From IMG/VR virus record IMGVR_UViG_2529293142_000011: a stretch of 23,222 nucleotides of DNA, one strand, 5' to 3'. The stretch is from a virus (taxonomy: Duplodnaviria > Heunggongvirae > Uroviricota > Caudoviricetes). Each line of letters opens with the position of its first letter. Positions within the stretch are counted from its first letter, which is position 1. Positions 1-3,000 of the stretch are shown piece by piece. The position numbers were made by a program.

Positions 1-3000
1 CTCATCAGGCGTTATCTCTACAGGTAATAATTCAAGGCCTGCGTCAGAAGTGGTTGTCACCGGAAGACGCCGTGATATACGCCCTTCGTTTTGCCAGAGT
101 CTGAGCCATTTGAAAATAACATTATCATTGACGCCATTTTCTCGTGCAATCTGAGCCACACAAGCACCGGGTTGTGATGCCAGTTCAACCATACGAAGTT
201 TGAATTCATTCGAATACTTTTTACGAGGTTCTTTTCGCCAGTCCTGTAATTCCATACTTAGATGTCCGTCTGTGTCAGATGGGCGTCTAAGTTACCAATT
301 CTTGTCTAATGGCTACATACGGCGGTCGGTTTACGCTTACATACTTACATATGGTTCGTGCAAACAAACGCAACGAGGCTCTACGAATCGAGAGTGCGTT
401 GCTTAACAAAATCGCAATGCTTGGAACTGAGAAGACAGCGGAAGCTGTGGGAGTTGATAAGTCGCAGATCAGCAGGTGGAAGAGGGATTGGATTCCAAAG
501 TTCTCAATGCTGCTTGCTGTTCTTGAATGGGGTGTCGTCGACGACGACATGGCTCGATTGGCACGACAAGTTGCTTCGATTCTCACCAATAAAAAACGCC
601 CGGCGGCAACCGAGCGTTCTGAACAAATCCAGATGGAATTCTGAGGTTATTACTGGAACTATCAACAGGAGTCATTATGACAAATACAGCAAAAATACTC
701 AACTTCGGCAGAGGTAACTTTGCCGGACAGGAGCGTAATGTGGCAGATCTCGATGATGGTTACGCCAGACTATCAAATATGCTGCTTGAGGCTTATTCAG
801 GCGCAGATCTGACCAAGCGACAGTTTAAAGTGCTGCTTGCCATTCTGCGTAGAACCTATGGGTGGAATAAACCAATGGACAGAATCACCGATTCTCAACT
901 TAGCGAGATTACAAAGTTACCTGTCAAACGGTGCAATGAAGCCAAGTTAGAACTCGTCAGAATGAATATTATCAAGCAGCAAGGCGGCATGTTTGGACCA
1001 AATAAAAACATCTCAGAATGGTGTATCCCTCAAAACGAGGGAAAATCCCCTAAAACGAGGGATAAAACATCCCTCAAATTGGGGGATTGCTATCCCTCAA
1101 AACAGGGGAACACAAAAGACACTAATACAAAAGAAAATAGAAAAGATTATTCGTCAGAGAATTCTGGCGAATCCTCTGACCAGCCAGAAAACGACCTTTC
1201 TGTGGTGAAACCTGATGCTGCAATTCAGAGCGGCAGCAAATGGGGGACAGCAGAAGACCTGACCGCCGCAGAGTGGATGTTTGACATGGTGAAGACTATC
1301 GCGCCATCAGCCAGAAAACCGAATTTTGCAGGGTGGGCTAACGATATCCGCCTGATGCGTGAACGTGACGGACGTAACCACCGCGATATGTGTGTGCTGT
1401 TCCGCTGGGCCTGCCAGGACAACTTCTGGTCCGGTAATGTGCTGAGCCCGGCCAAACTCCGCGACAAGTGGACCCAGCTCGAAATCAACCGTAACAAGCA
1501 ACAGGCAGTCGTGACAGCCAGCAAACCAAAACTCGACCTGACAAACACAGACTGGATTTACGGGGTGGATTTATGAAAAACATCGCCGCACAGATGGTTA
1601 ACTTTGACCGTGAGCAGATGCGTCGGATCGCCAACAACATGCCGGAACAGTACGACGAAAAGCCTCAGGTACAGCAGGTAGCGCAGATCATCAACGGTGT
1701 GTTCAGCCAGTTACTGGCAACTTTCCCGGCGAGCCTGGCTAACCGTGACCAGAACGAACTGAACGAAATCCGCCGCCAGTGGGTTCTGGCTTTCCGGGAA
1801 AACGGGATCACCACAATGGAACAGGTTAACGCAGGAATGCGCGTAGCCCGTCGGCAGAATCGACCATTTCTGCCATCACCCGGGCAGTTTGTTGCATGGT
1901 GCCGGGAAGAAGCATCCGTTATCGCCGGACTGCCAAACGTCAGCGAGCTGGTTGATATGGTTTACGAGTATTGCCGGAAGCGAGGCCTGTATCCGGATGC
2001 GGAGTCTTATCCGTGGAAATCAAACGCGCACTACTGGCTGGTTACCAACCTGTATCAGAACATGCGGGCCAATGCGCTTACTGATGCGGAATTACGGCGC
2101 AAGGCTGCCGATGAACTGTCCTGTATGACCGCACGAATTAACCGTGGTGAGGCTATACCTGAACCAGTAAAACAACTTCCTGTCATGGGCGGTAGACCTC
2201 TAAATCGTGCACAGGCTCTGGCGAAGATCGCAGAAATCAAAGCTAAGTTTGGGCTGAAAGGAGCAAGTGTATGACGGGCAAAGAGGCAATTATTCATTAC
2301 CTGGGGACGCATAATAGCTTCTGTGCGCCGGACGTTGCCGCGTTAACAGGCGCAACAGTAACCAGCATAAATCAGGCCGCGGCTAAAATGGCACGGGCAG
2401 GTCTTCTGGTTATCGAAGGTAAGGTCTGGCGAACGGTGTATTACCGGTTCGCTACTAGGGAAGAACGGGAAGGAAAGATGAGCACGAACCTGATTTTTAA
2501 GGAGTGTCGCCAGAGTGCCGCGATGAAACGGGTATTGGCGGTATATGGAGTTAAAAGATGACCATCTACATCACTGAGCTAATAACAGGCCTGCTGGTAA
2601 TCGCAGGCCTTTTTATTTGGGGGAGAGGGAAGTCATGAAAAAACTAACCTTTGAAATTCGATCTCCAGCACATCAGCAAAACGCTATTCACGCAGTACAG
2701 CAAATCCTTCCAGACCCAACCAAACCAATCGTAGTAACCATTCAGGAACGCAACCGCAGCTTAGACCAAAACAGGAAGCTATGGGCCTGCTTAGGTGACG
2801 TCTCTCGTCAGGTTGAATGGCATGGTCGCTGGCTGGATGCAGAAAGCTGGAAGTGTGTGTTTACCGCAGCATTAAAGCAGCAGGATGTTGTTCCTAACCT
2901 TGCCGGGAATGGCTTTGTGGTAATAGGCCAGCCAACCAGCAGGATGCGTGTAAGCGAATTTGCGGAGCTATTAGAGCTTATACAGGCATTCGGTACAGAG

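What the first reader, a model, noticed from the sequence alone, without database searches (positions are those of the whole stretch)
1..350. Immunity region replaced: IS-type transposase ORF abuts cII, while cro, nutR and tR1 are missing
cII, pRE and oop are intact and lambda-like, but upstream, where cro and the operators should be, there is only ~95 bp and then a reverse-strand HTH transposase-like ORF. The lysis-lysogeny switch appears destroyed by an IS insertion or IS-mediated deletion, leaving pRE firing into IS sequence. This is a hallmark of a domesticated, defective prophage.
Basis: partly seen in the sequence, partly recalled or inferred. Interest (0 to 1): 0.45.

Follow-up and report, generated by a model that had tools for sequence, protein, structure and literature searches.

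The report
IS66 insertion upstream of prophage cII
A common 2.5-kb jumping gene (IS66 family) has inserted 10 bases upstream of the cII gene of a lambda/434-type E. coli prophage; the window starts inside it, so cro and the operators only look missing, and this is ordinary.

Summary
Window 1-340 is the tnpA-side end of a 2,505-bp IS66-family insertion sequence. It is 99.7-100% identical to copies on many E. coli chromosomes and plasmids. The minus-strand ORF at 1-255 is the first 85 of 139 codons of the accessory protein TnpA (Pfam HTH_Tnp_1). The element ends at 340 with the family's GTAAGCG terminus. Phage DNA starts at 341 (lambda 38350), 10 bp before the cII ATG at 351.

The reading that the immunity region was replaced or deleted is not supported. 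I predicted the opposite junction (cro side, 8-bp duplication ATACTTAC, other IS end) and found it exactly once, in a 5.5-kb IMG/VR contig. That contig carries bet-gam-kil-cIII-N-cI-OR-cro-nutR-tR1, and its last 1,208 phage bases are 100% identical to phage 434. So this is a simple transposition, and the view is cut off inside the repeat.

Inferred effects: cII is cut from its Shine-Dalgarno sequence and from pR. pRE keeps its CII box and -10 but now starts inside the IS, 2.5 kb from cI. Establishment of lysogeny is probably lost. Maintenance (cI/OR/cro) is intact, and N-dependent lytic growth remains plausible. 31 of 32 other genes are intact. Low interest.

The parts
1..340 (-). tnpA-proximal end of a 2,505-bp IS66-family insertion sequence (tnpA-tnpB-tnpC read leftwards); the window begins inside it
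   Evidence: 99.7-100% identical over 340 bp to IS66-family copies in about 2,500 complete E. coli genomes, annotated tnpA/tnpB/tnpC. One mismatch to the full copy in L005.
1..255 (-). First 85 of 139 codons of the IS66 accessory protein TnpA (HTH_Tnp_1)
   Evidence: Translation; Pfam PF01527 at E=2.8e-13; RefSeq product 'IS66-like element accessory protein TnpA' under identical DNA.
317..340 (-). Terminal inverted repeat of the IS (GTAAGCGTAAACCGACCGCCGTAT read inwards); 20 of 24 bases match the other end (GTAAGCGTCAACGGAGCACCGTAT)
   Evidence: The two ends of the complete copy in L005 compared; the 20/24 count is by eye from those sequences. The IS boundary is defined by where homology to empty-site prophages begins.
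341..348 (.). Right-hand copy of the 8-bp target-site duplication ATACTTAC
   Evidence: The same 8 bp end the phage part of L006 just before the other IS end. They occur once in the empty-site relatives L001 and L007.
341..346 (-). pRE -10 hexamer (AAGTAT), now directly joined to the IS end; the original start site (lambda 38343, which would fall at window 334) is replaced by IS sequence
   Evidence: Position derived from the pRE -35 annotated in the phage 434 record (L010 1224-1229 = window 364-369) plus a 17-bp spacer. The lambda start coordinate is from established knowledge.
360..373 (-). CII-binding site and pRE -35 region (TTGCGTTTGTTTGC)
   Evidence: Annotated CII site at L010 1220-1233 in OL657226.1; the window sequence is identical.
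351..644 (+). cII, intact coding sequence but without its Shine-Dalgarno sequence
   Evidence: Pfam Phage_CII 1-91/91, E=1.7e-48. The annotated 434 RBS (L010 1196-1199) lies left of the insertion point. Anti-SD duplex is -6.0 kcal/mol in 434 and lambda, against +1.9 in the window.
309..644 (+). Artefactual extended reading frame: an ATG inside the IS is in frame with cII and adds 14 IS-derived codons; no SD precedes it
   Evidence: ORF list. Called as a gene on one public contig only, AFDY02000073.1. Anti-SD duplex +1.5 kcal/mol.
591..702 (-). oop RNA with its promoter pO (702->674) and terminator (620->593), intact
   Evidence: Promoter and terminator scan; oop ncRNA annotation in the phage 434 record.
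677..1576 (+). Replication gene O, the first gene downstream; with P, it now lies 2.5 kb further from pR
   Evidence: ORF; 99.7% identical to the O protein of FHI_NMBU_03.

Best explanation
A 2.5-kb IS66-family insertion sequence transposed into the cII leader of a lambda-like prophage with phage 434 immunity, between lambda coordinates 38349 and 38350. It made the family's usual 8-bp target duplication (ATACTTAC). The window begins inside the IS, and the one public draft contig that matches it also stops there. So cro, nutR, tR1, the operators and cI are out of view rather than deleted. They lie intact about 2.2 kb to the left of window position 1.

Shown: the identity of the IS, the exact boundary, both junctions, the duplication, and the intact 434-type immunity region on the far side.

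Inferred consequences:
(1) cII is separated from its Shine-Dalgarno sequence and from pR by 2,513 bp, so little or no CII is made.
(2) pRE keeps its CII box and -10 but now initiates in the IS inverted repeat. It must cross tnpA-tnpB-tnpC before reaching cro (antisense) and cI, so cI synthesis for establishment is crippled.
(3) Maintenance of repression (pRM-cI-OR-cro) and SOS inducibility are unaffected.
(4) After induction, pR transcripts modified by N at nutR (left of the IS) can read through the IS into O, P and Q. Lytic growth then becomes strictly N-dependent but is not abolished.
For: IS identity and extent:
- Searches identify the element: TnpA HTH_Tnp_1, TnpB_IS66 and DDE_Tnp_IS66 in copies that are 99.7-100% identical over window 1-340.
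- One search gives its length (2,505 bp) and inverted repeats.
- 8-bp duplications flank two other copies: AGTTTGGT in L005 and CAGAACTT in L004.

Boundary:
- All lambdoid relatives align from window 341, which equals lambda 38350.

Other junction:
- It was predicted from the model and found exactly once in IMG/VR, in L006.
- L006rc 1-5235 aligns to L001 8773-14008. Window 341 onwards aligns to L001 14001 onwards. The 8-bp overlap is the duplicated target.
- The empty-site relative L007 shows the same 8-bp overlap.
- The IS orientation in L006 and in the window matches that of a single complete copy.

Immunity region:
- L006 is 100% identical to phage 434 over the last 1,208 phage bases.
- cI contains HTH_3 plus Peptidase_S24; cro contains HTH_3.

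Rarity:
- Neither junction occurs in 5,426 complete E. coli genomes.
- The junction-spanning ORF lies on one contig among about 15 billion proteins. That contig equals the window with 0 mismatches.

Regulatory effects:
- RBS loss.
- No consensus intrinsic terminator in the IS in the pR direction.
Against: - The interior of the IS (about 1.9 kb between the 340-bp and 244-bp ends) has not been seen in this strain. Extra cargo, or two IS copies, cannot be excluded.
- L006 (IMG taxon 2529293142) could not be formally tied to the window's genome. The link rests on the matching duplication and orientation, the rarity of both junctions, and shared affinity to the same relatives (L007 carries the window's rare 852G allele and differs from L006 at 3 of 5,168 bases).
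- All functional consequences are inferred from lambda biology and are not measured.
- A frameshift in the major capsid gene, if real, would make the prophage defective for an unrelated reason.
Confidence: 0.85

Rival explanations
1. One reading: after or during insertion, the IS caused an adjacent deletion or replacement that removed cro, nutR, tR1, the operators and cI. That would leave a repressor-less, domesticated prophage remnant.
For: The window holds no phage DNA left of 341. The left flank of this exact genome was not seen directly. IS66 elements are multi-copy in such strains (median 2 matching places per genome), so recombination between copies is possible.
Against: The complementary junction, with the intact 8-bp duplication and a complete 434 immunity region, exists in a public contig. 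An adjacent deletion would have destroyed that duplication. Both junctions are otherwise absent from thousands of genomes, which argues for one event in one lineage. A prophage without cI but with intact O, P, Q, lysis and packaging genes would not be stably carried.
Confidence: 0.07
2. The two IS ends belong to a larger structure, not a single 2.5-kb IS. It could be two IS66 copies flanking cargo (a composite transposon), or an inversion or translocation between IS copies that placed the two prophage halves at different chromosomal sites.
For: The middle of the element is not assembled in any contig of this lineage. Several IS66 copies per genome are usual.
Against: Both ends are identical to those of a single 2,505-bp element, in the correct relative orientation, and flanked by a matching 8-bp duplication. 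This is what a single insertion produces. It does not exclude a later inversion between copies.
Confidence: 0.05
3. Assembly artefact: the IS-cII junction is a chimeric join made by the assembler at a repeat, and the prophage is uninterrupted.
For: The sequence has many one-base homopolymer errors, so it is a low-quality draft.
Against: The join falls exactly at the terminal base of the IS inverted repeat. The same join is in GenBank contig AFDY02000073.1. The reciprocal join, with the expected 8-bp duplication, is in another contig. A chimera would not reproduce transposition geometry.
Confidence: 0.03

Closest known systems
IS66-family insertion sequences of E. coli (tnpA-tnpB-tnpC elements of about 2.5 kb, such as ISEc8 or IS679 relatives)
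   Same: The TnpA HTH_Tnp_1 ORF, the GTAAGCG... terminal inverted repeats, the 8-bp target duplication and the 2,505-bp length are all present. The visible 340 bp are 99.7-100% identical to copies in about 2,500 complete E. coli genomes.
   Different: Nothing differs except the location. I could not assign an ISfinder name with these tools.
Classical IS insertions in the cro-cII-O region of phage lambda (for example the IS2 insertion r32 and the IS1 insertion r14). From my own knowledge; not found in the searchable library.
   Same: An IS between nutR/tR1 and the replication genes. As I recall, such phages show polarity on O and P that N-mediated antitermination overcomes, so they still grow but depend heavily on N and the Nus factors.
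   Different: The IS family differs (IS66, not IS2 or IS1). This is a natural prophage with 434 immunity, not a laboratory mutant. I could not verify the exact r32 and r14 positions here.
IS-disrupted lambdoid prophages of EHEC/STEC (for example the Sakai Sp prophages)
   Same: Lambdoid prophages of pathogenic E. coli commonly carry IS insertions and frameshifts (PMC2669165). According to that paper's title and abstract, defective prophages can still take part in horizontal gene transfer.
   Different: Here a regulatory leader is hit, not a structural gene, and the rest of the prophage looks intact.
Phage 434 / lambda imm434 early right operon
   Same: cI, OR1-3, cro, nutR, tR1, the cII leader, cII and oop are 99.9-100% identical to phage 434 (OL657226.1) apart from the IS.
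   Different: The IS interrupts the region 10 bp upstream of cII. The late region is that of an E. coli prophage family found next to ybhC in the closest relative.

Membership tests
IS66 family insertion sequence | First ORF encodes TnpA, a small helix-turn-helix accessory protein (Pfam HTH_Tnp_1) | tested here: met
   Window 255->1: PF01527, E=2.8e-13. The fragment covers the first 85 of 139 aa of the TnpA ORF found in copies that are 99.7-100% identical over window 1-340.
IS66 family insertion sequence | tnpB (PF05717) and the DDE transposase tnpC (PF03050) follow tnpA | tested here: inconclusive
   They lie outside the window. They are present in copies that are 99.7-100% identical over window 1-340 (L004, L005). 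In this lineage only the last 244 bp (tnpC 3' end plus inverted repeat) are seen, in L006, and they are 100% identical to L005.
IS66 family insertion sequence | Imperfect terminal inverted repeats beginning 5'-GTAAGCG | tested here: met
   Window 340->317 reads GTAAGCGTAAACCGACCGCCGTAT. The other end reads GTAAGCGTCAACGGAGCACCGTAT, a 20/24 match (count by eye).
IS66 family insertion sequence | 8-bp target-site duplication | tested here: met
   ATACTTAC follows the IS in the window (341-348) and precedes it in L006. It occurs once in empty sites. Other copies have AGTTTGGT and CAGAACTT. Caveat: the two junctions come from two contigs not formally proven to be from one genome.
Lambda-type cII / pRE / oop module | Full-length CII protein (Pfam Phage_CII) | tested here: met
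   351-644: PF05269 1-91/91, E=1.7e-48; 100% identical to 434 cII.
Lambda-type cII / pRE / oop module | cII preceded by its ribosome-binding site and transcribed from pR through cro-nutR-tR1 | tested here: not met
   The RBS annotated in phage 434 lies left of the insertion point. No SD-like pairing occurs within -18 to -4 of ATG 351 (+1.9 against -6.0 kcal/mol). pR and cro are 2.5 kb away, across the IS.
Lambda-type cII / pRE / oop module | pRE: TTGCN6TTGC CII box at -35, -10 AAGTAT, start site reading into cro antisense and cI | tested here: inconclusive
   The box (373->360) and the -10 (346->341) are present. The start site and transcribed region are replaced by the IS inverted repeat and tnpA. 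Activity was not measured.
Lambda-type cII / pRE / oop module | oop antisense RNA with promoter pO and an intrinsic terminator overlapping the cII 3' end | tested here: met
   Promoter-like site 702->674 and a 12-bp-stem terminator 620->593. They coincide with the oop ncRNA of the 434 record.
Defective (domesticated) prophage | Loss or truncation of genes essential for repression, replication, lysis or morphogenesis | tested here: inconclusive
   31 of 32 CDSs between cII and tail gene U are full length and 96-100% identical to an intact-looking relative. The immunity region on the companion contig is intact. The one break is a major-capsid frameshift, A5 against A6 at 20618. The sequence has 10 such homopolymer indels, so this is probably a sequencing error. 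The int/xis end and the tail end were not seen for this strain.

The most novel reading that the evidence does not exclude
The insertion puts the IS66 tnpA-tnpB-tnpC operon directly under the CII-activated promoter pRE. The CII box and -10 are retained, there is an 85-nt leader to the tnpA ATG, and the orientation is sense. CII supplied in trans by a superinfecting or co-resident lambdoid phage with the same cII could then switch on IS transposition genes, and read through to cI. That would couple IS mobilisation to phage infection.
Probability: 0.07. Interest if true: 0.35.

Novelty: already known. Interest (0 to 1): 0.1.

Why it matters
It matters little beyond annotation.

- It is a worked example of how a sequence that starts inside a multi-copy IS can look like a deletion.
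- For this strain, it predicts a prophage that stays repressed and inducible, but whose released phage would be cII-defective (clear-plaque) and strongly N-dependent.
- If the strain is of epidemiological interest, the cro-IS-cII junction is a unique lineage marker. Neither junction occurs in 5,426 complete E. coli genomes.

Tried and rejected
- Right junction searched in GTDB representative genomes, IMG/VR and JGI metagenome contigs: no hits.
- Window 1-700 against complete E. coli genomes and the phage collection: no record spans the junction. The same holds for the left junction against complete E. coli genomes.
- Attempts to tie L006 to the window's genome:
  - IMG/VR scans with two window-specific k-mers found no contig of IMG taxon 2529293142. 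They found only the empty-site relatives L007 and L008.
  - The cluster look-up of the junction ORF gave only the NCBI contig.
- Rfam and tRNA scans of the window: nothing.
- Literature searches for the lambda r32/IS2 precedent: nothing in the searchable library, so that comparison rests on my memory.
- L002 was first used as the reference IS copy, but its far end is truncated by an IS21-family element. L004 and L005 were used instead.
- Hybrid or outward promoter toward cII: no plus-strand sigma-70-like site in window 1-800, and none in the whole IS.
- The major-capsid frameshift as evidence of defectiveness: set aside as a probable homopolymer sequencing error.
- The IS was not given an ISfinder name, because no IS database is available.

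Full report
**What is in the sequence**

The minus strand of window 255->1 is an open frame of 85 codons that runs off the left end of the window. It matches Pfam HTH_Tnp_1 at E=2.8e-13.

Bases 1-340 are 99.7-100% identical to a sequence present in about 2,500 of 5,426 complete E. coli genomes. These copies lie on chromosomes and plasmids and are annotated there as 'IS66-like element accessory protein TnpA'. In full copies, tnpA (139 aa) is followed by tnpB (PF05717) and the DDE transposase tnpC (PF03050).

I defined the element from a copy that interrupts a PTS gene (L005) and another in a defence island (L004).
- It is 2,505 bp long.
- Its ends are GTAAGCGTCAACGGAGCACCGTAT and, read inwards from the tnpA side, GTAAGCGTAAACCGACCGCCGTAT.
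- It is flanked by 8-bp target duplications: AGTTTGGT in L005 and CAGAACTT in L004.

In the window the tnpA-side terminus is base 340.

**The phage side**

From base 341 the window aligns to lambdoid phages and prophages.
- Window 341 equals lambda 38350.
- Window 341-23222 is one 99.6%-identical block with prophages such as that of E. coli FHI_NMBU_03.
- cII (351-644) is full length and identical to phage 434 cII.
- The CII box TTGCGTTTGTTTGC (minus strand, 373->360) and the oop promoter and terminator are in place.

Two corrections apply. First, 85 of the 95 bp are IS sequence. Second, pRE keeps only its -35 and -10; its start site is now inside the IS inverted repeat.

**Insertion or deletion**

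The window starts inside the IS, so it cannot answer this by itself. The closest relative has the normal order cI (LexA-like) - cro - cII - O - P upstream.

No complete E. coli genome, GTDB representative, phage record or metagenome contig contains the IS-cII junction. The reading frame that spans the junction (309-644) occurs on a single public contig, AFDY02000073.1 of GCA_000225185.3. That contig also stops inside the IS. It equals the window with 0 mismatches and 2 homopolymer gaps, so it is the same strain or lineage. I could not tell whether window position 1 is itself a contig end. The window runs 86 bases further into the IS than that contig does.

I then predicted the other junction under the simple-transposition model: cro-side sequence ending in the 8 bp that follow the IS in the window, joined to the tnpC-side IS end. 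The pattern was CTAAGGAAATACTTAC|GTAAGCGTCAACGGAGC. It has exactly one exact match in IMG/VR, in the 5,479-bp contig IMGVR_UViG_2529293142_000013 (L006).

- Read in phage orientation, L006 carries bet, gam, kil, cIII, N, cI, the operators, cro, nutR, tR1 and the cII Shine-Dalgarno sequence. It then has ATACTTAC and 244 bp of the IS, which are 100% identical to L005.
- L006rc 1-5235 aligns to the relative at L001 8773-14008. Window 341 onwards aligns from L001 14001. The 8-bp overlap is the duplicated target.
- The empty-site relative L007 gives the same 8-bp overlap.
- The last 1,208 phage bases of L006 are 100% identical to phage 434.
- The left junction is also absent from all complete E. 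coli genomes.

Matching duplication, matching IS orientation and the rarity of both junctions make one simple insertion in one lineage the best explanation, at about 0.85. The remaining doubt has two sources. The two contigs are not formally tied to one genome, and the middle 1.9 kb of the IS is unseen.

**How it probably works (inferred from lambda and 434 biology)**

- **cII translation.** The insertion point lies between the annotated cII ribosome-binding site (L010 1196-1199) and the ATG. Pairing to the anti-SD within -18 to -4 falls from -6.0 kcal/mol in lambda and 434 to +1.9. The in-frame ATG at 309 inside the IS has no SD either. CII synthesis should be very low.
- **pRE.** With the annotated -35 at window 369->364 and a 17-bp spacer, the -10 (AAGTAT) is window 346->341, the last six phage bases before the IS. 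Any CII-activated transcript now starts in the IS repeat. It runs in the sense direction through tnpA-tnpB-tnpC for 2.5 kb before reaching cro (antisense) and cI.
- **Net effect on the switch.** The establishment arm is probably dead. The maintenance switch is untouched: pRM, cI with its S24 autocleavage domain, OR1-3 and cro.
- **Lytic growth.** Rightward pR transcripts meet nutR before the IS, and no consensus intrinsic terminator lies in that direction in the IS. N-modified polymerase should therefore reach O, P and Q.

As I recall, classical lambda mutants with IS2 or IS1 in this interval (r32, r14) behave this way. I could not retrieve those papers.

**Is the prophage defective?**

Of 32 annotated genes between cII and tail gene U in the relative, 31 are full length in the window. 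The exception is the major capsid gene, split by an A5-versus-A6 difference at 20618. The window has ten such one-base homopolymer differences from the relative, and two from its own sister contig. A sequencing error is therefore the likelier reading. 'Domesticated, defective prophage' is not shown.

**Comparison and verdict**

This is a member of a well-known IS family, inserted in a well-known phage region, in a kind of genome where IS-hit lambdoid prophages are routine (PMC2669165). The apparent loss of the immunity region comes from the sequence starting inside a repeat.

Novelty: already known. Interest: about 0.1. The only mildly unusual point is that pRE is now fused to the IS66 transposition operon, which could make IS expression CII-dependent. 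That is untested and unlikely to matter.

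Noticed in passing
window 20117-21144 (break at 20614-20618): The major capsid protein gene is split into two frames by an A5 run where the closest relative has A6. This is either a real inactivating frameshift or, more likely, a homopolymer sequencing error.
   Followed up: partly
window 5425, 6397, 6655, 7610, 8725, 11014, 20618, 21991/22013, 23197: There are ten one-base indels relative to the 99.6%-identical prophage of FHI_NMBU_03, including the capsid-gene indel at 20618. The sister contig AFDY02000073.1 shows two more homopolymer-length differences. The one run I inspected was an A run (A6 in the window, A7 in the sister contig, just downstream of the LpxR gene). 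The pair at 21991/22013 shifts a short stretch of tail gene Z (96% aa identity). This points to a low-quality draft sequence.
   Followed up: partly
window 5419-6381 (-): An LpxR-family lipid A deacylase gene lies on the opposite strand between the nin region and Q. It looks like a moron (an accessory gene carried by the prophage). In the relative it sits next to a truncated second antiterminator fragment.
   Followed up: no
window 6856-10864: Q is followed by a TfpB-like gene, a DUF3927 gene and a 616-aa SASA/DUF6645 esterase (NanS-p type). This is the position where Stx phages carry tRNAs and stx, but no tRNA genes were found in the window and no stx gene is annotated in this interval of the relative or of contig L003.
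   Followed up: no
L007 (IMGVR_UViG_2548876934_000006) and L008 (IMGVR_UViG_2693429774_000009): These relatives have an uninterrupted cro-cII and share the window's rare 852G allele. They have internal deletions joining O codon ~140 (window 1095) to window 4969-5278 and then to 7592 onwards. P, ren, most nin genes, LpxR and Q are gone, so these are genuinely degraded derivatives of the same prophage type.
   Followed up: partly
window 309-644 (+): An ATG inside the IS is in frame with cII and adds 14 IS-derived residues (MATYGGRFTLTYLH-). The gene caller behind the public collection recorded this 111-aa product rather than the 97-aa cII.
   Followed up: yes
L004 3949-6951 and 1-1339: In E. coli MINF_2E, another copy of the same IS sits inside an anti-phage defence island, between a DUF1156 gene and a phospholipase-D-like anti-phage gene.
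   Followed up: no
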